Assembly (NCBI GenBank): GCA_028865035.1
Contig: JAGWLB010000005.1
Location: 1-58,241 of the forward strand
Origin: Patescibacteria group bacterium
Lineage (GTDB): Bacteria; Patescibacteriota; Minisyncoccia; Phycocordibacterales; UBA9973
Direction: 5' to 3'
Length of the DNA: 58,241 bases
Numbering within the stretch: position 1 is the stretch's first letter; every line of letters starts with the position of its first letter. Below the pieces are notes generated by a model that ran no database searches, was not told the origin of the DNA, and worked only from the letters and a program-made list of their open reading frames with translations. Positions 10,668 through 52,169 of this stretch are shown piece by piece. The translations under genes and the position numbers were made by a program.

Positions 10668-10754
10668 ATTTATTTTATATGCTAAATGTTTTATAAAATT
10701 CTATAAACCTATTTTAACATCAATATTTGAGTATCGCAAAAATATACATAACTG

Positions 10755-10841
10755 CGGAGCCGGCTGGATTCGAACCAGCGAGGGCTTTTAGACCCTGCAT
10801 CTTTAGCAAAGATGTACGTTAGACCACTCTGACACGGCTCC
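10755..10841 (-). tRNA. tRNA-Ser(GCT), type II with long variable arm
   Basis: Acceptor GGAGCCG/CGGCTCC, anticodon arm CATCT-TTGCTAA-AGATG, T-arm GCTGG-TTCGAAT-CCAGC, discriminator G. Confidence 0.85.
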
Positions 10842-10938
10842 TTTATACTTTTACACATTATCATATTTAATACTTTTACCCAAAAATCTTTTTACTTATA
10901 TTTATATTATGATAGTATGTGTAAATTGAAAGAAGTAG

Positions 10939-11025
10939 GGAGGCGTGGATGAGTGGTTTAAATCAACGGTTTACTAAACCGTCGTACTTTAATCGGTACC
11001 GTGAGTTCGAATCTCACCGCCTCCG
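10939..11025 (+). tRNA. type II tRNA with Ser identity features and an apparent ACT anticodon
   Basis: GGAGGCG-TG-GAT-GAGTGGTTTAA-ATC-A-ACGGT-TTACTAA-ACCGT-(variable arm)-GTGAG-TTCGAAT-CTCAC-CGCCTCC-G. Confidence 0.7.
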
Positions 11026-11124
11026 CAGTAAGAAAAAAGTATCGGCACACCCATCGTCATATGGCTGTAGTGTGATCCGAATGCCCGATTACCCAAAAGA
11101 CTTGTTTTAAGCTAAAATTAGAGC

Positions 11125-12156: not shown

Positions 12157-12263
12157 GCCCGCATTTACAAAATATGAGCCCTTTAGGGCCATTTTGTTAT
12201 GCGTAGGCGAGCAAAGTATCTACATACTTTGCGTGTGAGATTCGAAAATCTTTCCCCTACGAG
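12157..12263 (+). repeat. structured intergenic repeat R1 (hairpins followed by a T-arm-like CGTGTGAGATTCGAA)
   Basis: Homologous to 13019-13106: shared GCCCGCA, GGCGAG, a hairpin, and an exact 15-mer CGTGTGAGATTCGAA at 12232-12246 and 13088-13102. Confidence 0.6.
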
Positions 12264-12282
12264 ATTCCTCGTGGAAAAGGTG

Positions 12283-12942: not shown

Positions 12943-12979
12943 GTAATAATATAAAATATCATTTTCAGTATTTTAACCC

Positions 12980-13022
12980 TTATTCCCCAACAATCCAGTT
13001 CCAACTACGTACCATACTGCCC
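12980..13022 (+). repeat. 43-nt post-gene repeat A: TTATTCCCCAA..AGTTCCAACT..GTA..ATA...CCC
   Basis: Aligns with 13731-13772. Confidence 0.55.
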
Positions 13023-13106
13023 GCAAAAAAAAGAAGACCCGAAAGGGTTTTTCTTTTTGCGGGCGAGAAAGAGAACTGCTTCTCTTTCGTGTGAGATTCG
13101 AAGACC
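13019..13106 (+). repeat. structured intergenic repeat R2 (long hairpin CCCGCAAAAA...TTTTTGCGGG, second hairpin, then CGTGTGAGATTCGAA)
   Basis: See R1. Confidence 0.6.
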
Positions 13107-13189
13107 TTTTTTTATTTTCGAAAAGTGTACTCACTGTCTAATCACCGCATCAACAAGCAATCATTAAATATGTTAAAATAATCTTACTG

Positions 13190-13843: not shown

Positions 13844-14350
13844 ATGGATTACCTTAAAAAACAATTTGAAGAGGCATATGAAAATTATGCAAACGCAATA
13901 TACAGACTATGTATATATAAGACCAGCAATCATGAGCAAGCTGAAGACCTTACTCAAGAGGTATTTATACGTTACTGGGATTATGTATCAGAAGGTGGCA
14001 AGGTTTTAAATATAAAAGCATTTCTATATCAGACAGCAAGAAATCTTATTATTGATTATTATCGTAAAAAAAAGACCTCGTCACTTGATGTATTGCAAGA
14101 GCAAGGATTTGATCCGTCAGCAGATGATCATAATCGTATTGTGAATGAATCAGAGAAGAACATCGCTATACAGATAATAGAAAAGTTAGATGATAAATAT
14201 AGGGATGTAGTATATTTGCGATTAGTAGATGATATGAGTATGGAAGAAATTGCACAAACTCTCAAAATCAGCACGAATAATGCAACCGTACGTTTTCATA
14301 GAGGTTATAAACAGTTAGAATCATATATCAAAAACAATGAAAATCGATAA
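13844..14350 (+). CDS. ECF-type RNA polymerase sigma-70 family factor
   Basis: Region 2 (EDLTQEVFIRYW, ARNLIIDYYRKK) and region 4 HTH (MSMEEIAQTLKISTNNATVRFHRG). Confidence 0.85.
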   Translation: MDYLKKQFEEAYENYANAIYRLCIYKTSNHEQAEDLTQEVFIRYWDYVSEGGKVLNIKAFLYQTARNLIIDYYRKKKTSSLDVLQEQGFDPSADDHNRIVNESEKNIAIQIIEKLDDKYRDVVYLRLVDDMSMEEIAQTLKISTNNATVRFHRGYKQLESYIKNNENR

Positions 14351-15209
14351 AGAACAATTCAATATATCATTACAATCTTTTAAAGATATTAGATTGAGTG
14401 AAAAAGCTAAAGCCAGAATAAAATCTGAGCTAATTGAACATACTAACAATAGCAATGGTCATTCTATACCTAGCCCATATTCAAACATTATTACCAGCTT
14501 TTTATTTAAGCCTGTAGTCATAGCTTTGATCTTAGTATTTCTAATATCTGGAGGTGTGGCTTTTGCTTCACAAGCGAGTTTACCTGGCGATTTCCTTTAT
14601 CCTGTTAAAACAAATATTACAGAACCATTAATTAAACTCACGAAGTTAGACAATAAAGCAAAAGCATCATTTGAGCTAGAACTTGTAGATAGACGTATAT
14701 CAGAAATGCAGAAACTTTCGAAAGAAAATAAAGTAACCGAAGAAAAAACAAAAGAAAATTTTGCATTACTTGAGAGTAATATAAAGCAGTATAAACATTA
14801 TGAAAGCAATACAAAGCAGGAAGATTCTTATGACAAAAGAGCATCAGATATTAATGTACGTTTAAATGATTATAAAAATATTATTTCATCCGCTCCGGAA
14901 ACAACCCCTCCTACGAATGTTTATAGCAATGTTTTAGAAAAGATACCTTCACTTTCTTTACCTACAAAAAATAGTAATGAAAAAAATGATAAAGAAAAAA
15001 AAAGACAAGAACCTACAAACAAATTAGAAACTAAAATTATTCATAATGAAGACACTTCACACGAAGCAACAATACATAATAATACAAACGAAAATAATTT
15101 AAATATTGATACCAAGAACAATGTTGATATTGATACAAAAAGTACTTTGCCAGAGGAGGTAATTCCTGGTATAATTAAAAGTACTAACCCTAAAGATTTA
15201 AGTTTGTAA
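14337..15209 (+). CDS. putative anti-sigma factor / single-TM membrane protein
   Basis: Overlaps the sigma gene by 14 nt. It has an N-terminal cytoplasmic segment, one TM helix, and an extracytoplasmic coiled-coil/low-complexity region. Confidence 0.5.
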   Translation: MKIDKEQFNISLQSFKDIRLSEKAKARIKSELIEHTNNSNGHSIPSPYSNIITSFLFKPVVIALILVFLISGGVAFASQASLPGDFLYPVKTNITEPLIKLTKLDNKAKASFELELVDRRISEMQKLSKENKVTEEKTKENFALLESNIKQYKHYESNTKQEDSYDKRASDINVRLNDYKNIISSAPETTPPTNVYSNVLEKIPSLSLPTKNSNEKNDKEKKRQEPTNKLETKIIHNEDTSHEATIHNNTNENNLNIDTKNNVDIDTKSTLPEEVIPGIIKSTNPKDLSL

Positions 15210-35682: not shown

Positions 35683-35852
35683 GTATTGTTATTTATTCTG
35701 GAGACTCGACCTCTACAAGGTCAGTACACCTTTCATATTTATTCAGATGAGTACATTTTCATAAATAAATTCAAGGTCTTCGATTCCTCCATGAAAAGCC
35801 GTTCAGGCTTTTCTCGCACTACACAAACAAATACTTTGTATTTATCTGTTTG

Positions 35853-35974: not shown

Positions 35975-36045
35975 TTGCGGGGCCTGGAATCGAACCAGGG
36001 TCTCAAGGTTATGAGCCTTACGAGATACCATTTCTCCACCCCGCT
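35975..36045 (-). tRNA. tRNA(CAT) with initiator-like features
   Basis: AGCGGGG-TG-GAGA-AATGGTA-TCTC-G-TAAGG-CTCATAA-CCTTG-AGAC-CCTGG-TTCGATT-CCAGG-CCCCGCA-A. It has a 1:72 A/A mismatch and A11:T24, but only two G:C pairs at the base of the anticodon stem. Confidence 0.7.
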
Positions 36046-36083
36046 ATAATACTACAAACTATCTAATATTGATATCATTTTTA

Positions 36084-36194
36084 TAGGCTCATAACCTTGG
36101 TTATTCGCACTATCAGTCCTTATCGGAGATACCATTTCCCTGCCTGCGCAGGCAGGTCCACCTCGCTATAATACTACAAACTATCTAATATTGA
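36084..36194 (-). pseudogene. rearranged pseudo-copy of the 5' part of tRNA(CAT) plus its upstream region, carrying the 18-bp palindrome
   Basis: 36126-36194 equals 36022-36072 plus the 18-bp insert, with 1 mismatch. 36084-36100 is an inverted copy of the anticodon arm. Confidence 0.6.
36139..36156. repeat. second copy of palindrome CCTGCCTGCGCAGGCAGG
   Basis: Identical to 3869-3886. Confidence 0.8.
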
Positions 36195-36420
36195 AATAAT
36201 ACATAATATACAAATATAATCTATATTATTCAAGCTAATTAGCTAAATCAGGAGATAACGTCTAGTAATACCTTTAAATAGTTATATTGCTATTGTACTT
36301 AAAATTAGAAATTTTGCAATCATATTATAAATTAAGTTAATAACATATATATTTTTACACATTATTAAAATAGGTTTATAATATAAGTAAACATATTTTA
36401 AATACTTAAAATAGACAGTC

Positions 36421-36642: not shown

Positions 36643-36738
36643 TATTTGTAAAGACTACAACAAATCCGAAAAATATGTTGTAGCCTTTTATTTTTACCTT
36701 TTGCAAAATAATCAAATTTAAACTAGTATATTTCATAT

Positions 36739-36764
36739 GCCGTTGTAGCTGTCTTGGTAGGTAT
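36739..36764 (+). pseudogene. 5' fragment of tRNA-Thr (acceptor + D-arm remnant)
   Basis: GCCGTTGTAGCTGTCTTGGTAGGTAT compared with the intact GCCGTTGTAGCTCAGTTGGTAGAGCA at 36806. Confidence 0.45.
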
Positions 36765-36805
36765 GAACTATAAGTTTGTCATTGTTAGTTAAAGTAATAT
36801 ATTAT

Positions 36806-37006: not shown

Positions 37007-38137
37007 ATGTCAGAAATTCTAGAAGAATCGAAAAAAGATATCTTCTTACTTGTCACCAAAGATAAAAGTATTCTTGATCCCACTTCTCCAGCGGGAAAGT
37101 TTGTCACAGACATTGAATCTGTGGTTTCTCAATTACATATTGTTTATATCGGAAAGGACAAGAAATCGGCAGAAAAAGTGAATAATAACACTTGGGTATA
37201 TAAAGTGAAGAACATCCCATTTTTTAGTTTTTTTGCGGTTTACCACGTTATTCATTTTCAATTAGTTTGGAAAAAGCATTTTCAACCAACTGTTATTATT
37301 AGTATGGGTGATGAAATTAAGATTGCCAAAAGACTTTCAGAAAAATATCATCGACCAATGTATGTTTTTTATTCATATATGAAGGCATTGGGTAGAAAGA
37401 GTGTATCAATTAGTTCTCTCACTCACGCTAAACCTAAAAAGATTTTTATTCCAAATGCTTATATAAGTGAAGCGATTGAAAATTACCCAGGATTTAAACC
37501 CGCAGAAACTGAAATTAAAATTTTAACAGAATATATAGATGTGGCAAACCTTGAAAATATGTTTAACAATAAGCATGTTGAAGGCGATGCCACTACTAGG
37601 AATAAGATTTTTACGATGTTGGTTTTTCCCAGAAACGCTAATCTGAAATCTTTTCGGATGATTCAAGCAATAGCAAAGGAAGTTAAAATTTCTATCGCCA
37701 GATTCCAATTTTATGTAGTTATTAAAGATAGTCAGATCCTGTGGGCTAAAATATTAAGACGTTTCCTAGGGATACCCCTGAACCTTATTAATGAAAAGGA
37801 AGAATCTGTTAATCTTTTTCATGCCTCGCAGATGATGCTATATTTTGATACAAAGAAGACCCCTTACGAACCAATCTTGTACTCCTTTGTCTCTGGCTGT
37901 CCAGTGCTTTCCACGGGAGATGAATATAGTCAGACGATTCTGTTTAACTCAGGGTTAGAAGAGTACGGCAAGCTAGCTAGAGATGGAAAAATGTTTGGTC
38001 AATTAATAAAGAAATTAATAAATGATCCGTATCTTTATACCAAATATAAAATGAACTGTGTCGGATTCGCAAAAGCTGCATTTACTCACGATCACGATTT
38101 GTATATTAGTAAGCTTAAAGAGAGTTTAAATGTCTAA
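37007..38137 (+). CDS. hypothetical protein; C-terminal half loosely resembles a GT-B (group 1) glycosyltransferase
   Basis: The start at 37007 avoids overlap with the tRNA. The only support is a weak C-terminal pattern (GCPVLSTGDEYSQTI). Confidence 0.4.
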   Translation: MSEILEESKKDIFLLVTKDKSILDPTSPAGKFVTDIESVVSQLHIVYIGKDKKSAEKVNNNTWVYKVKNIPFFSFFAVYHVIHFQLVWKKHFQPTVIISMGDEIKIAKRLSEKYHRPMYVFYSYMKALGRKSVSISSLTHAKPKKIFIPNAYISEAIENYPGFKPAETEIKILTEYIDVANLENMFNNKHVEGDATTRNKIFTMLVFPRNANLKSFRMIQAIAKEVKISIARFQFYVVIKDSQILWAKILRRFLGIPLNLINEKEESVNLFHASQMMLYFDTKKTPYEPILYSFVSGCPVLSTGDEYSQTILFNSGLEEYGKLARDGKMFGQLIKKLINDPYLYTKYKMNCVGFAKAAFTHDHDLYISKLKESLNV

Positions 38138-43236: not shown

Positions 43237-43307
43237 TGCCAGATCGTCTAATGGTAGGACACCTCCCTCTGGAGGAGGTTATCTTGGTTCGAGTCCAGGT
43301 CTGGCAG
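43237..43307 (+). tRNA. tRNA-Gln(CTG)
   Basis: TGCCAGA-TC-GTCT-AATGGTA-GGAC-A-CCTCC-CTCTGGA-GGAGG-TTAT-CTTGG-TTCGAGT-CCAGG-TCTGGCA-G. Confidence 0.9.
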
Positions 43308-43329
43308 CAGGTAGCGTAGCGTAGGAAGC

Positions 43330-43474
43330 TGCCAGAAGTATGTGGGAGTACCCGCATACGCCCTGGACGAGAAAACCCTGAGTATATCGCACGGAGTGTA
43401 GCGAGTACGATACGAAAGGTGTACAGAATCTGTAAGATTCGAGAAGCGTACTCGCGGTCCAGGTCTGGCAGCCA
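43330..43474 (+). ncRNA. G+C-rich tRNA-like element (or decayed tandem tRNA-Gln copy) with perfect acceptor and T stems and an encoded CCA
   Basis: TGCCAGA ... hairpin 43338-43359 ... CCTGG ... stem 43401-43409/43447-43455 ... CCAGG-TCTGGCA-G-CCA. Confidence 0.35.
43457..43472 (+). repeat. exact 16-nt repeat of the tRNA-Gln 3' end (GTCCAGGTCTGGCAGC; first copy 43293-43308)
   Basis: Direct comparison. Confidence 0.85.
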
Positions 43475-43516
43475 GCACGAGCGAGGTTATTACGCTCGAG
43501 TCTAAATAAAAACTAT

Positions 43517-44770
43517 ATGAAAAAAAAGGATTTAGCGGAAAAATTAAAATTAATTAGAAGTCTTAAAAAGGAAGATGGATTTGATAATGATAAAGAAATA
43601 GAAGAAATCATTATCCCTTTGATTAAGGAGTTATTCGAAGAAAAAAAATATAAAGACATTGTAGAAATTTTTTTGAAGACTCTTAGTGCAGAAGATCCTG
43701 GTTATTATGAGTTTGAGACAGCATATTCTTTTGACAATTTAGGGAAACAAGATGAGGCCGAGGAAATATATGATTCTTTGCTTTTTTTTGACGGTGGCAA
43801 CACCAGCGTTCTTAATAATCTTTCTAATATAAAGAAAAATAAAGGTGAAATGAATGAGGCATGGGATTTAATTAAAAAAGCATTTGAGCTTACTAAAGGG
43901 AAAGATGAAGTTGTAAAAAGAAATTATAACTCTTTATTAAAAATTGTTGAAGAACAAAAACAAATTGATTATCTTTTTGAATCAGCTAAAAATTCTTTAG
44001 AAAAAGAAACAAAATGGGCTATATCTAAATTAGAATATTTTTTGATAAACGTTCTCAAAGATTCAGAATACAAAGACGGACAAATCCCTATAGCTCGATG
44101 GAAATTTAAGGTAATGATGGGTGTGGATGAAGAAAAAGCTTCTTCCTTGCGTGATCAGTGGATAAACAAAGGTTATATAAAAGTACTAGAAAAAAGAAAC
44201 GAACATGGAGTACAATTTTACAAAATAAATCCCAAATTATCATCATTTATAAAACAAGTTAAACCCGTAGATTTAAATAATGAATGGTTTAAGGGTATAG
44301 ATAATGTAAATCGAGAGTCTTTAGAAAAGTGTGGATATTTTAATCTGCTTAAAAAAATTGAACATGTAAGCGTTAAATATAAAAGTTTAGTAAAAAGAGA
44401 TTATGATGAATTGGTATTTAATTATCTTCTGGGAAATAAAAAGTCAACAATTATTAACTCTGGTTCTTTCTTGGAGTTATTATTTACATATTTTTGTGAA
44501 AAGAAGAAAATCTTATCAATCAGCTATACAATTAATAATAAGATAGTTAATAAAAAATTGCATGAGTCTAATCTAAATGATTTTCTAAGTTATTTCGAGG
44601 AGAAACAAACATTTAAAACTATTATTGTATCTCTTGGAGAAGTAACTCGGATTTATAGAAATTTTATTCATCCGGGTAATGAAATAAGAAATAAGGAAAA
44701 GTTAGATATGCAAAAAGCTGAATTGTGTTTCTTCTCGGTTAATCAAATAGCAAACTATTTGCTCAAATAG
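43517..44770 (+). CDS. TPR-repeat / winged-helix-like protein with possible C-terminal HEPN-like domain
   Basis: TPR-like N-terminal repeats. The C-terminal segment is TRIYRNFIHPGNE (R..RN..H). Confidence 0.45.
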   Translation: MKKKDLAEKLKLIRSLKKEDGFDNDKEIEEIIIPLIKELFEEKKYKDIVEIFLKTLSAEDPGYYEFETAYSFDNLGKQDEAEEIYDSLLFFDGGNTSVLNNLSNIKKNKGEMNEAWDLIKKAFELTKGKDEVVKRNYNSLLKIVEEQKQIDYLFESAKNSLEKETKWAISKLEYFLINVLKDSEYKDGQIPIARWKFKVMMGVDEEKASSLRDQWINKGYIKVLEKRNEHGVQFYKINPKLSSFIKQVKPVDLNNEWFKGIDNVNRESLEKCGYFNLLKKIEHVSVKYKSLVKRDYDELVFNYLLGNKKSTIINSGSFLELLFTYFCEKKKILSISYTINNKIVNKKLHESNLNDFLSYFEEKQTFKTIIVSLGEVTRIYRNFIHPGNEIRNKEKLDMQKAELCFFSVNQIANYLLK

Positions 44771-44794
44771 TTTTTGTAAAGTCCTTATTAAAAA

Positions 44795-44821
44795 GAAAAT
44801 AGTCCATTTAGGACTATTTTC
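44795..44821 (+). terminator. rho-independent terminator
   Basis: GAAAATAGTCC-attta-GGACTATTTTC. Confidence 0.6.
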
Positions 44822-45129
44822 TTTCAACCGTTTTCACTTAAAATGCTCTATTTTCAAGCAAGGTACCTCCCGTCTTACGCCACAACTCTTTCGCCATTTC
44901 TCTTCCCCCATCGGATTCCGATGCAGGTATGCCGCTGGAGAGGGTTTTATTTTGGGTTGATATAAATATCATAGCATAGAAGAAAAATTGCCAAAGCAAA
45001 AAGTACATAAAACTGTTATTAAAATGGAGATAAAATAGATAATTTCAAACCCTGTATAATATTATCAATAACGATATAAAATATTTTTAAGTGCTCGAGA
45101 CACGTCGTTTTGGTAAATAAAAGAGTTAA

Positions 45130-45150
45130 AAATAACATTGTGGGGTAAGG
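45130..45150 (+). repeat. spacer motif GTGGGGTAAGGAACCAGTTGG (related copy at 46481-46532)
   Basis: GTGGG(G)TAAGGAA and CCAGTTGG are shared. The second copy carries a 32-nt insertion between the two halves. Confidence 0.4.
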
Positions 45151-45205
45151 AACCAGTTGGTCCTAGCCCGAGCGTCTCAGCAACTACTTTTTGTGTTTGG
45201 TTTGG

Positions 45206-45211
45206 TATAAT
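45206..45211 (+). promoter_or_regulatory. -10 box TATAAT, 6 nt upstream of the ATG at 45218
   Basis: Read directly. Confidence 0.45.
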
Positions 45212-45217
45212 AAAAAA

Positions 45218-45658
45218 ATGGAAATTAAATTAAAAGAAATCGGAAATGAATTTAAATGTCCAATAGCTATTATAATGAAAGATGGGAAAATATTAACTGG
45301 ACATCGTCATTATACGCCAGACAAATGGAAAAAAATTTCAGTGTGGACAGTTCCTGGTGGTAGGTGTAATTCTGGTGAAATAATACGAGATGCTCTTACC
45401 AGAGAGATTCAAGAAGAAGTCGGAATTACTGAATTTGAAATCATTGATTTTATTGGAGAAGTACCAGGCGCAAAAGATGGAGATATTGTTCCAATGTTTT
45501 TTTGTACAACAGAACAAGATTTTAAACTTATGGAACCAGAAAAATTCTCTGAATGGAGGTGGGTTTCAAAGGATGAATATATAGCAGGAGGAGAGTATAG
45601 TGGCTTTAATCCAATAGCAAGAGAAGTAATAGTTGATTATCTTAAAAAGTTAATTTAA
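45218..45658 (+). CDS. NUDIX hydrolase
   Basis: Nudix box GGRCNSGEIIRDALTREIQEEVGI. Confidence 0.85.
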   Translation: MEIKLKEIGNEFKCPIAIIMKDGKILTGHRHYTPDKWKKISVWTVPGGRCNSGEIIRDALTREIQEEVGITEFEIIDFIGEVPGAKDGDIVPMFFCTTEQDFKLMEPEKFSEWRWVSKDEYIAGGEYSGFNPIAREVIVDYLKKLI

Positions 45659-45679
45659 CTATTAAATTATAATAAATAA

Positions 45680-45710
45680 GTTCCAAAGTTGCCCTAGGTC
45701 GCTAGCCAGC
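45680..45710 (+). repeat. cassette-boundary motif GTTCCAAAGTTGCCCTAGGTCGCTAGCCAGC
   Basis: Aligns with 47245-47271 and 48267-48293, and with the tRNA-Gln 3' end. Confidence 0.55.
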
Positions 45711-45719
45711 AAAATTTGC

Positions 45720-45725
45720 TATAAT
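45720..45725 (+). promoter_or_regulatory. -10 box TATAAT, 6 nt upstream of the ATG at 45732
   Basis: Read directly. Confidence 0.45.
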
Positions 45726-45731
45726 AAAAAA

Positions 45732-46148
45732 ATGGAACAAATACCAAAATCAAATAATCAATCTAATTCAGAATCAAAAATTGTAAGTTTTGAAGCAAAT
45801 ATAGATCGTGCTCTTTATAATAATATTAAAAATGAAACGAGAAATGATTTAAAAAATTCACTTAAAAAATTAAAAGAAGAACTAGAATTGCTCGAAGAGG
45901 AAAAAAGATCAAAGAAAAATTACACAAAAAATGTCAGTTCAAATAAAACAGAATACTCTGAAAATGAAATTGAACATTTTAATGAACGAATTTCAGAAAT
46001 AGAGCAATCAATAAAAGACATTCACGGCTATATGACTGAACTTGATTTAGATTCAATAATGATTGATGATACACTTGAGGAGATTAAATATCTTGAAAAT
46101 AAATATAGAAAAATTTTGTTTAATATAGATAAATCGCAGTTAAATTAA
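45732..46148 (+). CDS. coiled-coil hypothetical protein
   Basis: Lys/Glu-rich heptad-like sequence. Confidence 0.45.
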   Translation: MEQIPKSNNQSNSESKIVSFEANIDRALYNNIKNETRNDLKNSLKKLKEELELLEEEKRSKKNYTKNVSSNKTEYSENEIEHFNERISEIEQSIKDIHGYMTELDLDSIMIDDTLEEIKYLENKYRKILFNIDKSQLN

Positions 46149-46149
46149 A

Positions 46150-46476
46150 ATGAAAACACTAAAATTTACTGCGCAACTTGTAGATAAAATACTTTCAGGT
46201 GATAAGACTTCTACATGGAGATTGTTTGATGACAAGGATTTGAAAAATGGAGATGAGCTTATATTTATAAATAAAGATACCGGTAATCAATTTGGAACTG
46301 CCAAGATTACCTCACTAAAAGTTAAGACACTAGGTACTCTAGCAGATGAGGATTGGGTAGGACATGAAAAGTTTTCCTCAGAGGAAGAAATGTATGAAAC
46401 CTATAAAAGATATTATGGTGATATGGTAAATAAAGATTCTGAAGTTAAAATTTTAACCTTTAATTTTAAAAAATAA
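46150..46476 (+). CDS. ASCH domain protein
   Basis: LKFTAQLVDKILSGDKTSTWRLFDDKDLKNGDELIF...AKITSL pattern, typical of ASCH/PUA-like folds. Confidence 0.75.
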   Translation: MKTLKFTAQLVDKILSGDKTSTWRLFDDKDLKNGDELIFINKDTGNQFGTAKITSLKVKTLGTLADEDWVGHEKFSSEEEMYETYKRYYGDMVNKDSEVKILTFNFKK

Positions 46477-46480
46477 CATC

Positions 46481-46532
46481 GTGGGTAAGGAATTAAAAGC
46501 TTTAATCAGATTAACGAAAAGCCTCCAGTTGG
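46481..46532 (+). repeat. second copy of the GTGGGTAAGGAA...CCAGTTGG spacer motif
   Basis: See 45130-45150. Contains the hairpin GCCTCC-agtt-GGAGGC. Confidence 0.4.
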
Positions 46533-46685
46533 AGGCCTGTATTAGGTAATCAATTCTATAGATCAAGCCTAACCTATTGGTAAAAGTTAAGGATGTCCAG
46601 CCTCGTAAAAGAGGTTGTTTGCAATAGTGGTTTTTGATGATAGAAAACAATCATATTCCTTATTATTATATCATATAATATTTGA

Positions 46686-46691
46686 TATAAT
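46686..46691 (+). promoter_or_regulatory. -10 box TATAAT, 6 nt upstream of the ATG at 46698
   Basis: Read directly. Confidence 0.45.
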
Positions 46692-46697
46692 TAAAAA

Positions 46698-47240
46698 ATG
46701 AAAAACGCAATAATATTTCATGGAACAGGAAGTACTGGTAAATATTTTTGGTTCCCATATTTAAAAGAAAAACTTGAAAAGAAAGGTTTTGAAGTGTGGC
46801 TTCCAGATTTACCGAACAAGGATAATCCAAATATTAATGAATTAGTCCCTTTTGTTTTAAAAAATGGAAAATTTAATTCAGAAACTGTATTGATAGGTCA
46901 CTCTTCTGGGGCGCAATTAATTTTAAATATTTTAGAGAAAATTGATATTAAGATAGAGCAGGCAATACTAGTTTCAGGATACGCAGAATCTTTAGCTGAA
47001 AGTGCTAATTCAAATATAAAACCTGATCTTGATTGGAATAAAATTAAAGAAAATGTAGAAAATATTATTTTTATAAACTCTGATAATGATCCTTGGGGTT
47101 GGGATGATAAGCAGGGTAGAGCTATGTTTAATAAGCTAGGAGGAATTCAAATTATTATGCACAACGAAGGACATATGGGTTCAGTATCCTACAATCAACC
47201 CTACAAAGAATTTCCTTTATTGGTTGACCTTATTCATTAA
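46698..47240 (+). CDS. YdeN/RBBP9-type alpha/beta serine hydrolase
   Basis: IIFHG start, nucleophile elbow GHSSGA, and downstream D and H (NEGHM). Confidence 0.75.
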   Translation: MKNAIIFHGTGSTGKYFWFPYLKEKLEKKGFEVWLPDLPNKDNPNINELVPFVLKNGKFNSETVLIGHSSGAQLILNILEKIDIKIEQAILVSGYAESLAESANSNIKPDLDWNKIKENVENIIFINSDNDPWGWDDKQGRAMFNKLGGIQIIMHNEGHMGSVSYNQPYKEFPLLVDLIH

Positions 47241-47244
47241 AAAG

Positions 47245-47271
47245 GTTCCGATATAATCCCAGGTCGCCAGC
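47245..47271 (+). repeat. cassette-boundary motif GTTCCGATATAATCCCAGGTCGCCAGC
   Basis: See 45680-45710. Confidence 0.55.
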
Positions 47272-47285
47272 TCTGAGTGGCAAAT

Positions 47286-47319
47286 AAAAAAGTCACTAAT
47301 TATAAATTAGCGACTTTTT
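47286..47319. terminator. bidirectional hairpin between convergent genes
   Basis: AAAAAGTCACTAAT...ATTAGCGACTTTTT. Confidence 0.6.
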
Positions 47320-47323
47320 GATT

Positions 47324-47710
47324 TTAGTTTAGGGCTTTGAGTTCGGTAAGTTCTTTTTCAATTTTCATAATTGCATTTTGATAACCACTTTTTTCATTCT
47401 CGAATTCTTTTTCAATTGATTTTTTATAAATCTCAATTTCATGTTTCGTTGGTGGAAACAGTTTGTATGAAAAAAAGGATGAACCAGTGGAGCCAACAAG
47501 CATCCCAAAAAACAAACCGAAGATTCCAAATCCTACGAGGAAAATTTTTAATTCATGGACGGTAAAATATGGACTTCGTTCAAATTTGTAAAAAAGATAA
47601 ACCATTACTAATGAGAAAAGGCACATAATTGTTCCCATCTCTATTAATGAGATAATTTTACCTCTTTTACTCCTCCTAAAAATTTTCCATTGAAGGCTAT
47701 CATTTTTCAT
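47324..47710 (-). CDS. membrane protein (2-3 TM segments) with C-terminal coiled coil, function unknown
   Basis: Hydrophobic segments. Confidence 0.45.
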   Translation of the reverse strand: MKNDSLQWKIFRRSKRGKIISLIEMGTIMCLFSLVMVYLFYKFERSPYFTVHELKIFLVGFGIFGLFFGMLVGSTGSSFFSYKLFPPTKHEIEIYKKSIEKEFENEKSGYQNAIMKIEKELTELKALN

Positions 47711-47857
47711 AATTAATTAAATTTAAGGTTCAAGAATATTATATTTCTGTTATGTAATATCATTATTTATATGTTTTGTCAAAAATATTTTAGTGAATAA
47801 AAAAAGAGGTCCGGATAGAAATCCAACCCCTTATTAATAACCGCCTATGAAACAATT

Positions 47858-48196
47858 TTAAAGCCCAAGTAACTTTTTTTCTACTTGCGTAAGTTTTCTT
47901 AGAGCCCTGTCTTTTATTTTTAATGATTCTGTTTCTTCGTCAAATAGTGTTGCTGGTTTGCAGTTATCCATCACAAAACTAATTTCCCCATCAGTTAATA
48001 CCGGTTTTTTAGCTGTTTTAATATAATTTTCATCAGTTTGTTGTCCAGCAAAGGCGACAGCGATTGTGTCGTCTTTGAAAAAACCAATTGAAGAAGAATA
48101 TATACCGCCATAATCTACTCTATAGACTTCAGTCATTTCTATTATTTTAAATGAACTTAAGTCTTTACCTATAAGTATCGAAATATCATTTTCCAT
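47858..48196 (-). CDS. hypothetical protein
   Basis: 112-aa ORF. TAAAAT lies 8 nt upstream of the ATG. Confidence 0.45.
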   Translation of the reverse strand: MENDISILIGKDLSSFKIIEMTEVYRVDYGGIYSSSIGFFKDDTIAVAFAGQQTDENYIKTAKKPVLTDGEISFVMDNCKPATLFDEETESLKIKDRALRKLTQVEKKLLGL

Positions 48197-48266
48197 TTTA
48201 ATTTATTTTAGCTGAAAAATATTGTTTAACTAAACATTACCACCTCCTCTATATTTGTCAATAACT

Positions 48267-48293
48267 GTTCCAATGTCGTACTAGGTCGTCAGC
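48267..48293 (+). repeat. cassette-boundary motif GTTCCAATGTCGTACTAGGTCGTCAGC
   Basis: See 45680-45710. Confidence 0.55.
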
Positions 48294-48320
48294 TACTAAT
48301 CTTTGGCTTTATAGATTATA

Positions 48321-48638
48321 ATGATTTTAATTATGGCTAAACATTTAATTGCCGGAGGGGTGGCACATGAGTTGCCAGAAGATTTGCGAAAAGCTTTGAC
48401 AGCTGATCGTAAAGCTTTAACCGCATGGGAAGATATCACACCACTTGCTCGCAATGAGTGGATTTGCTGGACTATCTCAGTTAAGACTCCAGAAACTAGG
48501 AAAGAGCATATTGCTAGAGTTGTTTCGGAACTCAAAGAGGGGATTCGTAGACCATGTTGCTGGATGGGTTGCGTTCATCGCACCGATAAAAAATTAAGCC
48601 CTTCACAGAAATTCATACTTAAAAAACAGAAATGCTAG
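48321..48638 (+). CDS. YdeI/OmpD-associated family protein
   Basis: ALTAWEDITPLARNEWICWTISVKTPETRKEHIARVVSELKEG. Confidence 0.7.
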   Translation: MILIMAKHLIAGGVAHELPEDLRKALTADRKALTAWEDITPLARNEWICWTISVKTPETRKEHIARVVSELKEGIRRPCCWMGCVHRTDKKLSPSQKFILKKQKC

Positions 48639-48663
48639 GATACTTTATGTAAAGTGTCCTAGC
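48634..48663. terminator. bidirectional hairpin overlapping the stop codon
   Basis: GCTAGGATACTTT-atgt-AAAGTGTCCTAGC. Confidence 0.6.
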
Positions 48664-48673
48664 ATTTAATTGG

Positions 48674-48991
48674 TTACGATATTACATCGTAGCATTCTTT
48701 TAGTTCATCTAATAGTTTAAGCATATGGTACAGACCACGTTGCTCGTCAGTGGGAGGTATACCATGTTGCAGATATAATTCCCTAAGTTTATCCAGATGT
48801 TTAAAAATTTTTTCTTTTTTGCCGTACTTAATAGCTTCAATAAGGCTTTCCTCTGTAAACCTTATTTCGGGCTGAGTGCCGTAAACATAGTCGTGTATTG
48901 ATATAGAACGACTTCCACTCAATAAATTCTCTACAGCTTCAATAAAAACACCGAAATGACTTTTGTTTAAAAATAACAATACATTTTTCAT
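48674..48991 (-). CDS. hypothetical protein
   Basis: 105-aa ORF with no recognisable motif. Confidence 0.4.
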   Translation of the reverse strand: MKNVLLFLNKSHFGVFIEAVENLLSGSRSISIHDYVYGTQPEIRFTEESLIEAIKYGKKEKIFKHLDKLRELYLQHGIPPTDEQRGLYHMLKLLDELKECYDVIS

Positions 48992-49125
48992 AATACAAAT
49001 TTTCTTTTTATATTACGTTAAATTGACATTTTGTCAACAAATTATTCCAAACATTTTTATGATTAAAATAGTGATTTCAACTTTACCTTATACTATCACT
49101 AGATAAATTCTGTTATACTCTCCAT

Positions 49126-50217
49126 ATGACTTTCCTCGAACCAGCTAGTAAATTCTATTCTCGCTTTGAGCGACCGATATCATCGTTGTCATTACTTTCG
49201 GGTTTCATATTTGATGCACTTACACTCAAACGAGTAGATACACTCTGGGAGAATTTCTGGATATTGATACATCTTCTCATTATTTGCGTGTTTATAATCT
49301 TAATTCACGCGAATGAAAGTGGAGAAGGAGATGAAAAAAACCCGTCCAAGGCACACTTCTGGTATGTGAATATATTACAATTCTTTTTTGGTGGCATCCT
49401 TTCTGCGTTTTTGGTTTTTTATTTCCGTAGTGCTGACATCTTGGTGACTTGGCCGTTCATCTTGCTTCTTATTGCAGCTTTTGTGGCCAATGAGTCACTC
49501 AAGCGTCATTATGTAAGATTAAGTTTTCAGATTAGTCTCTTTTTCCTCTCAGTTTATTCTTTTGCTATATTTTTTATCCCGGTTATATTACACCAAATAG
49601 GTACATATATATTTCTGCTATCTGGTTTGGTAAGTCTTGTTTTTATCAGTATCTTTGTGAGCGTGCTGTTCTACTTTCTAAAAGATCGCTTTACAGAGAG
49701 TAAAAGATTAGTTGTCTTTCTTGTGCTTGGTATCTTTGCTACAGTGAACATACTTTATTTCACAAATCTTATTCCGCCTATTCCACTATCACTCAAAAGT
49801 GGGGGAATATATCATTCTGTACAAAAGAATGATACTGGAAACTACGATGTCACTTCTGAACCACGGAGTTGGCGTGACTATCTTAATATTTATCAAGACT
49901 TCACTCAGACGCCAACAGATCCAGTGTATGCATTCAGTGCTGTGTTCTCACCTAGAGATTTAAATATTACTATTGTTCACGAGTGGCAACATTACGATGA
50001 AGTAAAGAAGAAGTGGCTGACTAATGCTACTATACGTCTACCGGTGGTAGGCGGGCGCGATGGAGGCTTCCGTACGTATTCTATGCTTACCAATCTCACT
50101 CCTGGTAAGTGGCGGGTGAATATAAAGACTACAGAAAATAAAGTTATCGGACGCTTACGGTTTCGTATTGTTGATTCTAACACCCTGCCTGCTCTTGTGG
50201 ATGAGATAGTGAAATAG
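49126..50217 (+). CDS. polytopic membrane protein with C-terminal DUF2914-like beta domain
   Basis: About 7 TM segments, then WQHYDE...GGFRTYS...GKWRVNI. TATACT lies 6 nt upstream of the ATG. Confidence 0.6.
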   Translation: MTFLEPASKFYSRFERPISSLSLLSGFIFDALTLKRVDTLWENFWILIHLLIICVFIILIHANESGEGDEKNPSKAHFWYVNILQFFFGGILSAFLVFYFRSADILVTWPFILLLIAAFVANESLKRHYVRLSFQISLFFLSVYSFAIFFIPVILHQIGTYIFLLSGLVSLVFISIFVSVLFYFLKDRFTESKRLVVFLVLGIFATVNILYFTNLIPPIPLSLKSGGIYHSVQKNDTGNYDVTSEPRSWRDYLNIYQDFTQTPTDPVYAFSAVFSPRDLNITIVHEWQHYDEVKKKWLTNATIRLPVVGGRDGGFRTYSMLTNLTPGKWRVNIKTTENKVIGRLRFRIVDSNTLPALVDEIVK

Positions 50218-51312: not shown

Positions 51313-51407
51313 TTGGCAAACACCTTCATTTTAAAGCCGCTGTACAATACAGTGGCTTTTATTTTAAGATGTTTTTCATGTATTTATGCGCATTTTTCAT
51401 ATTGGTG

Positions 51408-51413
51408 TATAAT
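51408..51413 (+). promoter_or_regulatory. -10 box TATAAT, 6 nt upstream of the ATG at 51420
   Basis: Read directly. Confidence 0.45.
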
Positions 51414-51419
51414 GTACAT

Positions 51420-52169
51420 ATGAAATCCTCCAGAATCATATTAATAATCGTTATTATTGTCGGGGTTGTGCTAATCCTTACACGTAATGCGTGGATGCCA
51501 AAATTAGTAAATAAAACTAATAAAAACAATATTACAAACACCCAAACTGCTAATTACGGTCCGATAACCATTACAACTAAGAAGATAAATGAAGCAAATT
51601 TCACTGGTGTTACGACTACCATCACAGGATCAAGTCAAATTGCTATCGATATGCAAAAGTACATAGATGACACTATTAATGATTTCAGGAATCAAGCGAA
51701 TAATGAGGTTCCAGATATGCGAGCACAATTCGGAGCAAATAATCCTACATCAAACTATGAAATTGATATTAATTCAAAATATATAAAAGATGAAAAAACC
51801 GAGTCTCTAGTGACTAGTGTTTATACTTTCACTGGCGGAGCTCATGGTAGCACTATATATAAAGTTTTAACCGCGGATCTTAACACAGGGAAAATTTTAT
51901 CGCTTTCTGATGTTATCAAGCCAGATATGCAAAGTGCTTTTACATCATTAGTTAAGAAAGATTTGATTGATTGGAGACCAGAGGGTAGTGACGCCCCTGT
52001 AGTTTTCCCTGATAGTGTGAATAGTTTAACTTTTGATGATTTTAGTAATTGGTCTATGAATAGCAAAGATTTAATTATTTATTTTGATCAATACTCTATT
52101 GGTCCAAGTGTTATAGGCACTACAGAATTCCCTATACCTATTACAGATTTAAAAGGTTTCTTTAAATAA
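51420..52169 (+). CDS. membrane-anchored DUF3298/DUF4163-like (RsiV/PdaC C-terminal type) protein
   Basis: N-terminal TM helix, FTGGAHG motif, and LIIYFDQYSIGP. Confidence 0.6.
   Translation: MKSSRIILIIVIIVGVVLILTRNAWMPKLVNKTNKNNITNTQTANYGPITITTKKINEANFTGVTTTITGSSQIAIDMQKYIDDTINDFRNQANNEVPDMRAQFGANNPTSNYEIDINSKYIKDEKTESLVTSVYTFTGGAHGSTIYKVLTADLNTGKILSLSDVIKPDMQSAFTSLVKKDLIDWRPEGSDAPVVFPDSVNSLTFDDFSNWSMNSKDLIIYFDQYSIGPSVIGTTEFPIPITDLKGFFK

What the first reader, a model, noticed from the sequence alone, without database searches (positions are those of the whole stretch)
43237..48293. tRNA-Gln-anchored array of single-gene cassettes punctuated by a tRNA-3'-end-like motif, with no recombinase in the window
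Immediately 3' of tRNA-Gln(CTG) the content switches to short, functionally unrelated accessory genes in both orientations. They are TPR/HEPN-like (43517-44770), NUDIX (45218-45658), coiled-coil plus ASCH (45732-46476), YdeN-type hydrolase (46698-47240), membrane protein (47324-47710), unknown (47858-48196) and YdeI-like (48321-48638). Most have their own TATAAT-N6-ATG start and their own hairpin terminator. The borders carry a recurring motif: GTTCCAAAGTTGCCCTAGGTCGCTAGCCAGC (45680), GTTCCGATATAATCCCAGGTCGCCAGC (47245) and GTTCCAATGTCGTACTAGGTCGTCAGC (48267). Its right half resembles the tRNA T-stem/acceptor strand CCAGGTCTGGCAGC. The exact 16-nt tRNA end is itself repeated at 43457-43472, followed by CCAGCA, just as the 45680 copy ends AGCCAGCA. 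Serial integration into a tRNA gene leaves such direct repeats. But the units here are only 0.4-1.3 kb, and no integrase, transposase or phage gene occurs anywhere in 58 kb. That makes the arrangement look more like an integron-style cassette array using a tRNA-derived site, or an extremely decayed island. The left half (GTTCCAA...CGTAC) is shared with the tRNA-Ser islet repeats.
Basis: partly seen in the sequence, partly recalled or inferred. Interest (0 to 1): 0.72.

Follow-up and report, generated by a model that had tools for sequence, protein, structure and literature searches.

The report
tRNA-Gln-anchored gene-cassette array in CPR
Behind a glutamine tRNA gene of a tiny uncultured bacterium sits a row of small accessory-gene blocks, each closed by the same roughly 50-base motif and headed by a folded copy of the tRNA's own end; related genomes carry the same punctuation around different genes, which suggests a gene-capture hot spot working without a nearby recombinase.

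Summary
The window comes from a Paceibacteria (CPR) genome. The three motif copies (45680, 47245, 48267) belong to a conserved ~50-nt family, "m". It has 11 copies in 2.04 Mb of related loci, all just after stop codons, all downstream of tRNA-Gln or tRNA-Ser on the tRNA's strand. A sister motif, m', lies at 45116-45195.

The 16-nt tRNA-end repeat (43457-43472) closes a ~150-nt compound palindrome, "E" (43326-43474). E is built from an inverted and a direct copy of the tRNA's own 3' end. It is conserved behind tRNA-Gln in about ten relatives, and type-matched copies follow tRNA-Asp and Thr there and lie near tRNA-Ser and Met in the window. Covariation is strong and Rfam has no match.

In relatives, E, m and m' punctuate one- to three-gene blocks with unrelated cargo. 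No recombinase was found in the window or in any such locus.

Most likely this is a tRNA-anchored integration hot spot, filled by serial site-specific insertion of small cassettes that lack an integrase. It is not an integron: m does not fold, cassettes carry their own promoters, and there is no intI. The likeness of m to tRNA is weak by sequence and rests mainly on position. Mobility was not shown directly.

The parts
43237..43308 (+). tRNA-Gln(CTG), the anchor of the array. Its last 16 nt (43293-43308, 'T') are the repeated sequence.
   Evidence: ARAGORN. Rfam tRNA, 58.3 bits. The pyrG-LOG-tRNA-Gln order is conserved in most related Paceibacteria loci.
43326..43474 (+). Element E, a compound palindrome. 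It comprises: an inverted copy of the tRNA 3' end (GCTGCCAGA at 43328-43336 and CCTGGAC at 43362-43368), split by the P2 hairpin (43338-43359); an internal region with further helices; and a direct copy of the tRNA 3' end (T*, 43457-43472).
   Evidence: Covariance model R1 scores 130.6 bits. RNAalifold finds compensatory changes in 27 of 39 pairs. Across 16 copies, 90.7% of cells are paired against 64.7% in shuffles and 27-38% in slid controls. The DNA fold has z = -7.2. Rfam gives no match.
43469..43477 (+). CAGC|CAGCA junction at the 3' edge of E. The same tail follows E in L002, a partial E in L010, and motif m1.
   Evidence: Read directly from the sequences.
43517..44770 (+). Block 1 cargo: a 417-aa protein with a weak TPR hit and unknown function. 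It is followed by a hairpin terminator and ~350 nt of unexplained non-coding DNA (44771-45115).
   Evidence: Pfam TPR_8, E = 0.0039, below the cut-off. NCBIfam gives only weak TPR-chaperone hits and PHROGs none. No homologue in any related locus.
45116..45195 (+). Junction motif m' (core 45136-45183, ...GGTCCTAGCCCGAGCGTCTCAGCAA), between block 1 and NUDIX.
   Evidence: The m' profile gives E = 2.4e-16. Further copies lie at gene borders in the L010 array (3004-3100, 5263-5330, 1158-1247) and at 7452-7529 in L006/L083, about 2.3 kb downstream of the tRNA-Gln there.
45218..45658 (+). Block 2 cargo: a NUDIX hydrolase, a single gene bounded by m' and m1.
   Evidence: Pfam NUDIX, 2.5e-17. Its own TTTGGTATAAT-N7-ATG start is visible in the sequence.
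45660..45713 (+).
   Evidence: Exact pattern match. m profile E = 1.1e-6. It starts 21 nt after the NUDIX stop codon.
45732..47240 (+). Block 3 cargo: a coiled-coil protein (45732-46148), an ASCH protein (46150-46476), a 220-nt GC-rich spacer whose start (46469-46492) repeats the 5' part of m', and a serine hydrolase (46698-47240).
   Evidence: Pfam ASCH 9e-11 and Ser_hydrolase 2.6e-10. The repeat 46469-46492 / 45128-45152 is 92% identical.
47227..47278 (+). Its 5' part overlaps the last codons of the hydrolase gene. Its last 16 nt differ at 2 positions from the tRNA-Gln 3' end of relative L002.
   Evidence: m profile E = 1.4e-8. Edit distance 2 of 16 to ATCCCTGGTCGGCAGC.
47324..48196 (-). Block 4 cargo: a 128-aa membrane protein and a 112-aa protein of unknown function, both on the minus strand.
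   Evidence: ORFs. No family hits.
48247..48299 (+).
   Evidence: m profile E = 2.1e-7. The genes beyond it are shared with relatives downstream of their tRNA-Gln: YdeI 48333-48638 with L002, 49126-50217 with L005, 51369-52169 with L002.
12976..13153 (+). The same junction module in the tRNA-Ser islet: motif m (12976-13032, ending CCGC like tRNA-Ser), a terminator hairpin, and an E copy of tRNA-Ser type (13054-13153). A partial E lies at 12199-12264.
   Evidence: R1 scores 41.2 and 21.2 bits. m profile E = 2.1e-5. Sequence.
35700..35787 (-). Probable remnant of an E copy, 3' of tRNA-Met.
   Evidence: R1 scores 18.3 bits, E = 0.0057 in a 173-kb search. The inverted-repeat hit I12 links it to 43410-43443.

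Best explanation
The stretch 43309-48299 is a tRNA-anchored integration hot spot, a flexible islet, in a Paceibacteria genome.

The proposed mechanism is as follows. Small DNA units of one to three accessory genes, each with its own promoter, were inserted one after another at the 3' end of tRNA-Gln. Insertion was by site-specific recombination, catalysed by a recombinase encoded elsewhere, either in the genome or on a helper element. Each unit ends in a conserved ~50-nt right-end sequence (m or m'). The last ~15 nt of that sequence are a degenerate tRNA-Gln 3' end finishing in CAGC, that is, a hybrid attachment-site scar.

Element E sits directly behind the tRNA. It carries one inverted and one direct copy of the tRNA's 3' end, so a folded single strand rebuilds that end as a duplex. 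E most likely acts as the attachment or landing module, letting cassettes be added without damaging the tRNA gene.

Shown here:
- the repeats, their conservation, their confinement to tRNA-downstream gene borders, and E's structure;
- different cargo between the same motifs in other genomes;
- T-like sequences of foreign tRNA-Gln variants inside arrays.

Inferred:
- the recombination mechanism;
- the trans-acting enzyme;
- the role of E;
- whether the cassettes are still mobile.
For: - **Motif family m.** 11 copies in 2.04 Mb, found only in four genomes. All are downstream of, and co-oriented with, tRNA-Gln (10 copies) or tRNA-Ser (1 copy), and all sit right after stop codons. The m' subfamily behaves the same way.
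- **L007 array.** tRNA-Gln, E, then three successive units of promoter, single gene and m, followed by a fourth gene (an APH-family kinase) that has no m after it.
- **L010 array.** Four E copies sit on the tRNA's strand. The three inside the array are each preceded by m or m' plus a terminator, the same layout as tRNA-end + terminator + E. Homology starts in the last ~8 nt of the tRNA.
- **Cargo.** It differs between genomes and is of accessory type: NUDIX, HAD, APH, S8 peptidase, HEPN, unknowns. Flanking pyrG-LOG synteny is conserved. Beyond m3, backbone genes shared with L002 and L005 resume.
- **Right ends of m.** They are nearest to tRNA-Gln 3' ends among all tRNA types. m2 matches 14 of 16 nt of the L002-type tRNA-Gln. 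L007's first m copy matches 13 of 16 nt of its own tRNA. The Ser-array copy ends in CCGC, like tRNA-Ser.
- **Foreign tRNA-Gln variants inside arrays.** These are L010's third E copy, the partial E after L010's second E copy, and the partial tRNA-Gln copies in L181 and L006. In L181 the inserted block is flanked by 24-nt direct repeats that include the tRNA end. This indicates import from other lineages.
- **Distribution of E.** It is patchy among relatives and matched to tRNA type. It follows tRNA-Asp and Thr in relatives and lies near tRNA-Ser and Met in the window.
- **Precedent.** Serial integration at tRNA genes that leaves partial tRNA repeats is an established process (bioRxiv 10.1101/2020.12.28.424599).
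Against: - No recombinase was found in the window or in any locus bearing E or m, so the enzyme is hypothetical.
- No cassette-level gain or loss was seen between near-identical strains. All 24 contigs that share the identical LOG protein of the L087 lineage have the same neighbours. No close relative of the window genome is in the collections.
- m is not significantly similar to tRNA-Gln by alignment or by profile.
- Homologous cargo in different genomes does not carry recognisably conserved m flanks.
- In the window only the first junction has E. The others carry m or m' alone, and two long non-coding stretches (44771-45115, 46477-46697) are unexplained.
Confidence: 0.5

Rival explanations
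1. This is an integron-like capture system that uses folded single-stranded DNA. E plays the role of attC/attI. When single-stranded, it folds so that helices P1 and P3 rebuild the tRNA 3' end as a duplex. A dedicated recombinase encoded in trans recognises structure rather than sequence, and inserts or excises circular cassettes at the direct tRNA-end copy.
For: - E is a strongly conserved fold with highly variable stem sequences, even between copies within one array.
- Its stems are almost purely Watson-Crick. P2 has 140 of 144 cells Watson-Crick and one G-T, as expected for a DNA palindrome rather than an RNA stem.
- The 5' arm is the exact complement of the tRNA 3' strand, including the unpaired T-loop and discriminator bases. 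For example, it reads CCTGG where the tRNA's own 5' strand reads CTTGG, and the Asp-type copy carries ACCGGACTTGAA.
- E sits between a terminator and the next promoter, so it is not obviously transcribed.
- In L010 most junctions carry E, and cassettes are co-oriented.
Against: - There is no integrase next to the array.
- In the window and in L007 the cassettes end in m, which has no secondary structure.
- Cassettes have their own promoters.
- E also occurs alone behind tRNA-Asp and tRNA-Thr with no array.
- No excision or insertion polymorphism was observed.
Confidence: 0.15
2. These are decayed classical genomic islands. One or a few ordinary tRNA-integrating elements (prophages or integrative elements with an integrase) once sat here. 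They have since been whittled down by deletion. m, m' and E are leftover attachment-site arms, and the present 'cassettes' are survivors rather than units of transfer.
For: - Direct repeats of the tRNA end and degenerate copies further out are the classic signature of serial integration followed by decay.
- The m copies are degenerate.
- The array is stable across the 24 contigs of one lineage.
- CPR genomes are strongly reduced (general knowledge).
Against: - m and m' sit immediately after stop codons at almost every gene border in L007 and L010, with spacing of 0.3-1.6 kb.
- The motifs are conserved across genomes whose flanking LOG proteins are only about 62-64% identical to the window's, which implies selection or recent spread.
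- No phage or integrase remnant was detected in any array.
Confidence: 0.17
3. E is a tRNA-like non-coding RNA. Its P1 and P3 helices stack like an acceptor/T-arm minihelix. It acts at the RNA level, for example as a mimic or decoy for tRNA-Gln-handling enzymes, or as a processing signal. m and m' would be RNA 3'-end or processing elements. On this view the variable gene content is ordinary turnover near a tRNA gene.
For: - E keeps acceptor-like and T-stem-like helices that track the neighbouring tRNA in every lineage.
- In four copies E ends in an encoded CCA after the discriminator base.
- In the window there is no terminator between the tRNA and E.
- G-T pairs outnumber A-C mismatches 28 to 13 overall.
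Against: - In several relatives a strong A-run/hairpin/T-run terminator separates the tRNA from E, and no promoter precedes E.
- P1-P3 show no G-T excess (10 against 10), and P2 is almost purely Watson-Crick.
- The 5' arm also copies the complement of unpaired tRNA bases.
- E occurs with five different tRNA types and repeats inside arrays.
- E is absent from many close relatives, so it is not essential.
- No Rfam family matches.
Confidence: 0.13
4. The motif copies are chance similarities or ordinary regulatory sites, with no link to the tRNA.
For: The motif is short, and its similarity to the tRNA end is not significant on its own.
Against: - Profile E-values are 1e-6 to 1e-11.
- Copies occur only downstream of tRNA genes, on the same strand, in four genomes.
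- m occupies the same position as the tRNA end in the junction module.
Confidence: 0.03

Closest known systems
tRNA-targeting integrative elements and their island scars (for example the tycheposon islands of Prochlorococcus, and tRNA-anchored hypervariable regions of streamlined genomes such as SAR11)
   Same: - Insertion at the 3' end of a tRNA gene.
- Direct repeats of the tRNA end.
- Successive insertions that push older ones outward, leaving partial tRNA copies scattered through a flexible island.
- Accessory cargo in a small, streamlined genome.
   Different: - No integrase or any mobility gene here.
- Units are only 0.3-1.7 kb, one to three genes.
- Borders carry a conserved ~50-nt motif that is not simply a partial tRNA.
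- A structured ~150-nt palindrome (E) built from inverted and direct tRNA-end copies accompanies the tRNA. I found no description of such an element.
Integrons (intI, attI, attC cassette arrays) and attC clusters that lack an integrase (CALINs)
   Same: - An array of small, mostly co-oriented accessory-gene cassettes.
- Each cassette is closed by a recurring site.
- One junction element (E) has conserved structure but variable sequence, like attC.
- Arrays can exist without an adjacent integrase, as in CALINs (general knowledge).
   Different: - No intI and no attI.
- The common border motif (m) does not fold.
- E is a branched, tRNA-derived palindrome and lacks the R/L-box attC layout.
- Cassettes carry their own promoters.
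- The array is anchored on a tRNA gene.
- The host is a CPR bacterium.
XerC/D-dependent modules (pdif modules on Acinetobacter plasmids, IMEX elements)
   Same: Small gene modules that lack a recombinase and are bounded by short recombination sites, moved by a host recombinase encoded elsewhere (general knowledge).
   Different: Those sites are 28-bp dif-like sequences with dyad symmetry, and adjacent ones are inverted. Here the sites are direct, non-symmetric, ~50 nt long and linked to a tRNA. No Xer gene was seen in these loci.
Structured RNAs of Rfam (nearest score: Clostridiales-1 RNA, RF01699)
   Same: Similar size and a multi-stem layout.
   Different: The score is 12.9 bits against a gathering score of 48, with E = 1.6 on a 201-nt query. 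E is not a member.

Membership tests
Integron | An IntI-type tyrosine recombinase gene next to the array, with an attI site | tested here: not met
   A XerD/lambda-Int profile found no tyrosine recombinase in the window or in any E/m locus. The sensitivity of that three-sequence profile is limited. Pfam, NCBIfam and PHROGs scans of unknown ORFs were negative. The array is flanked by LOG and pyrG.
Integron | Each cassette ends in an attC site, an imperfect palindrome that folds as single-stranded DNA | tested here: not met
   m1-m3 and m' show no fold beyond shuffles (z -0.25, -0.14, +1.12, -0.89). Only E folds (z -7.2). E is present at just one junction in the window and has a different, branched architecture.
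Integron | Promoterless cassettes, co-oriented and expressed from a common Pc promoter | tested here: not met
   NUDIX, CC138 and the hydrolase each have their own TTTGNTATAAT-N6-7-ATG start. Two genes are on the opposite strand.
tRNA-integrating genomic island / integrative element | Located at the 3' end of a tRNA gene and flanked by direct repeats of the tRNA's 3' part | tested here: met
   The exact 16-nt repeat is at 43293-43308 and 43457-43472. In relatives the repeat tracks each genome's own tRNA, up to 25 nt in L014. The distal m copies end in degenerate tRNA-Gln 3' ends.
tRNA-integrating genomic island / integrative element | The element encodes its own integrase and further mobility or replication genes | tested here: not met
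   None in the window or in the arrays of L002, L007, L010, L087/L179 and L181.
tRNA-integrating genomic island / integrative element | Presence or absence varies between closely related strains, exactly at the att repeats | tested here: inconclusive
   Content differs completely between species-level relatives, while the flanks are conserved. The only deep population sampled, 24 contigs of the P0137 lineage, shows no variation. No close relative of the window genome is available.
MITE / insertion-sequence derivative | Terminal inverted repeats, target-site duplication, and many dispersed copies | tested here: not met
   E has inverted arms, but they equal the neighbouring tRNA's end and change with tRNA type. 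Copies occur only 3' of tRNA genes or inside their arrays. No transposase was found.
Known structured RNA family (Rfam 15) | A score at or above a family's gathering threshold | tested here: not met
   Only tRNAs pass. The best other hit on E is 12.9 bits against a threshold of 48.

The most novel reading that the evidence does not exclude
CPR bacteria of the Paceibacteria/Nomurabacteria group may possess a previously undescribed gene-cassette capture system.
- Its recombination sites derive from the 3' end of a tRNA gene.
- A folded palindrome (E) presents that end as a duplex, functionally like an integron attC/attI.
- Short direct sites (m, m') close each cassette.
- The recombinase is encoded in trans and may be of an unrecognised type.

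This would be an independent invention of integron-like evolvability in ultra-small genomes.
Probability: 0.17. Interest if true: 0.9.

Novelty: new variant of a known kind. Interest (0 to 1): 0.66.

Why it matters
CPR/Patescibacteria have tiny genomes, and few mobile elements have been recognised in them. How they gain accessory genes is poorly understood.

This locus family shows a recurrent, sequence-defined architecture for holding, and probably acquiring, single accessory genes next to tRNA genes with no mobility gene nearby. The architecture is: tRNA end, terminator, palindrome E, then genes each closed by m or m'.

If the cassettes move, the system gives a directly testable model for gene flux in streamlined episymbionts. 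It also points to a recombinase that recognises a tRNA-derived site, possibly a folded one.

Even if the arrays are now fossil, E is a new, strongly structured element. E, m and m' are defined well enough, by one covariance model and two profile HMMs, to be mapped across thousands of MAGs. These elements also mark places where assemblies break.

Tried and rejected
- **Known RNA families.** Rfam at gathering and at permissive thresholds found nothing but tRNAs.
- **More E copies in the window array.** The full-length covariance model with filters off, and a sequence HMM with --max, found none in 43480-49200. The GC-rich spacers at 44771-45115 and 46477-46697 are therefore not detectably E-derived.
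- **Derivation of m from tRNA-Gln.** Local alignment with shuffles and a profile search against 131 tRNAs were both non-significant. Only the terminal ~16 nt rank nearest to tRNA-Gln.
- **m as a hairpin site.** No fold was found.
- **Near-identical strains.** Exact-protein look-ups for three window genes and for P0001 found nothing. The genome and metagenome scans gave at best 79-83% LOG identity. Populations that share an identical LOG protein were either of lineages without E (P0021, P0013) or invariant (P0137, P0176).
- **Viral contigs.** The E core pattern gave no match.
- **Recombinase search.** A XerD/lambda-Int profile over 4233 ORFs hit only an unrelated XerD-like gene in L043.
- **Hammerhead ribozyme, SRP RNA, tmRNA-like domain, a hidden tRNA-Gln(UUG), an invertible promoter, a primer-binding site for reverse transcription.** Each was considered from the sequence and dropped for lack of the defining motifs or genes.
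- **Generic promoter and terminator scan.** It is uninformative in this AT-rich DNA.
- **Literature.** I found no description of such arrays or of E in CPR genomes.

Full report
**Source and setting**

The window has about 33% G+C. Its pyrG-LOG-tRNA-Gln segment finds its best matches in MAGs labelled Candidatus Paceibacteria, Paceibacterota or Nomurabacteria, which are CPR bacteria. LOG protein identity in the loci studied is 54-83%. No closer relative exists in the collections. The pyrG-LOG-tRNA-Gln(CTG) order is conserved in most of these relatives. Everything 3' of the tRNA differs between them.

**Check of the observation**

- tRNA-Gln is at 43237-43308.
- The 16-nt tRNA end recurs exactly at 43457-43472.
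- GTTCC-N9-CYAGGTCG matches exactly at 45680, 47245 and 48267. All three are on the + strand and intergenic. Shuffles give 0.48 matches even with two mismatches allowed. There is one chance match in 1.13 Mb of related DNA.
- NUDIX, ASCH, serine hydrolase and OmdA/YdeI are confirmed. The 417-aa protein has only a sub-threshold TPR hit.
- The TATAAT-N6-7-ATG starts are real but are the general promoter style of this genome.

**Element E**

The GC-rich 165 nt after the tRNA is not a random scar. It is conserved behind tRNA-Gln in L002, L007, L009/L180, L010, L014, L084, L087/L179 and L181-184, and in shortened form in L008.

In every genome E ends with a copy of that genome's own tRNA-Gln 3' end, although the acceptor stems differ between genomes. 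Its 5' part carries the exact Watson-Crick complement of the same sequence, split by a hairpin (P2). For example, it reads CCTGG where the tRNA's own 5' strand reads CTTGG. In the Asp-type copy it reads ACCGGACTTGAA, which includes the complement of the unpaired T-loop. E is therefore a compound palindrome whose arms are an inverted and a direct copy of the tRNA 3' region.

The evidence for structure is strong:
- RNAalifold predicts 39 pairs, 27 of them with compensatory changes.
- Across 16 copies, 90.7% of cells pair, against 64.7% in shuffles and 27-38% in slid controls. 36 of 39 pairs show double changes. That alignment was fitted to the model, which favours the structure.
- The window copy folds with z = -7.2.
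- Rfam has no match.

Copies matched to other tRNAs lie directly 3' of tRNA-Asp (L002, L007) and tRNA-Thr (L003). In the window they lie in the tRNA-Ser islet (13054-13153, with a partial copy at 12199-12264) and after tRNA-Met (35700-35787). E is absent from many relatives, so it is not essential.

**The motif family**

In L010 four E copies lie behind tRNA-Gln on the same strand, separated by two or three genes. The three copies inside the array are each preceded by a terminator and, before that, by a motif that stands where the tRNA end stands at the first junction.

A profile finds 11 members in 2.04 Mb. Four are in the window (45660-45713, 47227-47278, 48247-48299, 12976-13032), three in L007, three in L010 and one in L088. 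All are downstream of the tRNA on its strand, and all sit just after stop codons.

A sister motif, m', lies at 45116-45195 between the 417-aa gene and NUDIX, at three gene borders in L010, and in L006/L083.

L007 shows the cleanest picture. After tRNA-Gln and E come three successive units of promoter, single gene and m, spaced 0.3-0.7 kb. A fourth gene, an APH-family kinase, follows without an m.

The window array therefore reads:
- tRNA-Gln, then E;
- block 1: the 417-aa gene, closed by m';
- block 2: NUDIX, closed by m1;
- block 3: coiled-coil protein, ASCH and hydrolase, closed by m2;
- block 4: two minus-strand genes, closed by m3;
- then backbone genes (YdeI, 49126-50217, 51369-52169) that relatives L002 and L005 also carry downstream of their tRNA-Gln.

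**How tRNA-like is m?**

By sequence alone, only weakly. Local alignments to the tRNA are not significant. The m profile hits none of 33 tRNA-Gln genes.

Support comes from position and from the 3' end of the motif:
- m replaces the tRNA end in an otherwise identical junction module.
- All Gln-array copies end in CAGC, as the tRNA does. The Ser-array copy ends in CCGC, like tRNA-Ser.
- The last 16 nt of m rank nearest to tRNA-Gln 3' ends among 14 tRNA types. m2 differs at 2 of 16 positions from the L002-type tRNA-Gln. L007's first copy differs at 3 of 16 from its own tRNA.

m has no secondary structure.

**Signs of import**

Arrays contain tRNA-end sequences of tRNA-Gln variants foreign to the host:
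- L010's third E copy, and a partial E after its second copy.
- L181 and L006 carry a partial tRNA-Gln (the 3' two-thirds) with a different acceptor type downstream of the working gene.
- In L181 the inserted block is flanked by 24-nt direct repeats that include the tRNA end.

The LOG/tRNA-Gln junction is also a rearrangement point. The tRNA is inverted in some relatives (L003, L082, the P0021 lineage). It is replaced by tRNA-Ala/Pro plus a methyltransferase in L164, and it is absent in L001. Many assemblies break there.

**Recombinase**

None was found.
- A XerD/lambda-Int profile over 4233 ORFs from the window and all loci hit only an unrelated gene in L043.
- Family scans of the unknown ORFs in the window and of array cargo in L007 and L010 found hydrolases, kinases, a peptidase and unknowns.
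- The one nuclease seen is a free-standing LAGLIDADG gene next to tRNA-Gln, in L007 only.

**Interpretation**

The best reading (confidence about 0.5) is a tRNA-anchored integration hot spot filled by serial site-specific insertion of small units that lack an integrase. In this reading m and m' are conserved right-end or hybrid att scars, and E is an attachment or landing module. Serial insertion at tRNA genes is known from tycheposon islands and similar systems. tRNA-anchored hypervariable regions in other streamlined genomes have been described.

What sets this case apart is the very small unit size, the absence of any mobility gene, the conserved non-tRNA part of m, and E itself.

The rivals are:
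- **A true integron-like system that uses folded E (0.15).** E's almost purely Watson-Crick stems (P2: 140 of 144 cells) and its position between a terminator and the next promoter fit a DNA-level site.
- **Decayed ordinary islands (0.17).**
- **A tRNA-like RNA function for E (0.13).**

Integron membership fails on three defining features. Mobility itself is unproven. The one deeply sampled population, 24 contigs, shows an invariant array.

**Verdict**

The finding is real. It is a new variant of tRNA-anchored flexible islands. E is a new structured element whose function is open.

Noticed in passing
window 10754-11026: A divergent pair of tRNA-Ser genes. One (GCT, minus strand) is missed by Rfam at its gathering score. 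The other has the unusual anticodon ACT. Together they anchor a second small array that contains E and m copies.
   Followed up: partly
window 37007-38137: A 376-aa ORF with no hit in Pfam, NCBIfam or PHROGs sits between tRNA-Thr(CGT) and prfB. In several relatives (for example L001, L004, L163) the tRNA lies within about 150 nt of prfB. This looks like another single-gene insertion at a tRNA 3' end, but no m motif is visible.
   Followed up: partly
window 36035-36200 and 36735-36770: The 5' end of tRNA-Met with its upstream region is duplicated as 44-nt copies (93% identical), and a partial copy of the 5' start of tRNA-Thr is present. Partial tRNA gene copies are common in this genome.
   Followed up: no
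window 44771-45115 and 46477-46697: Two long, relatively GC-rich non-coding stretches lie inside the array. They match no RNA family, no E model and no related locus. The stretch 46469-46492 repeats the 5' part of m' (45128-45152).
   Followed up: partly
window 13844-15209: Two adjacent genes follow the tRNA-Ser array here. The first looks like an ECF-type sigma factor by eye, but no family scan was run. Their homologues lie downstream of the tRNA-Gln array in L002 and L005, which suggests rearrangement between tRNA-anchored arrays.
   Followed up: no
L007 9057-9758: A free-standing LAGLIDADG homing-endonuclease gene is inserted between LOG and tRNA-Gln. It was seen in this relative only.
   Followed up: partly
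L181 2300-2860 (minus strand) and L006 9500-9790 (minus strand): A partial tRNA-Gln (the 3' two-thirds) with a foreign acceptor type lies downstream of the working tRNA-Gln. It is preceded by a conserved double hairpin (AGTAGTCGCC..GGCGACCCGCC..GGCGGG). In L181 the block is flanked by 24-nt direct repeats that include the tRNA end.
   Followed up: partly
L168-L172, L185-L186, L009/L180 (contig ends): Independent assemblies repeatedly break contigs at or just after tRNA-Gln. This is expected at a repeat-rich or population-variable site.
   Followed up: no
L005, L006 and L010, after genes in the arrays: Another recurring border sequence is the perfect palindrome AGCAAGGACGGTCCTTGCT. It may be a different junction or terminator family in those lineages.
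   Followed up: no
window 36990, 38144, 45201, 45715, 46681, 52188: The genome-wide start signal TTTGNTATAAT-N6-7-ATG is an extended -10 box placed so close to the start codon that many mRNAs should be leaderless or nearly so.
   Followed up: no
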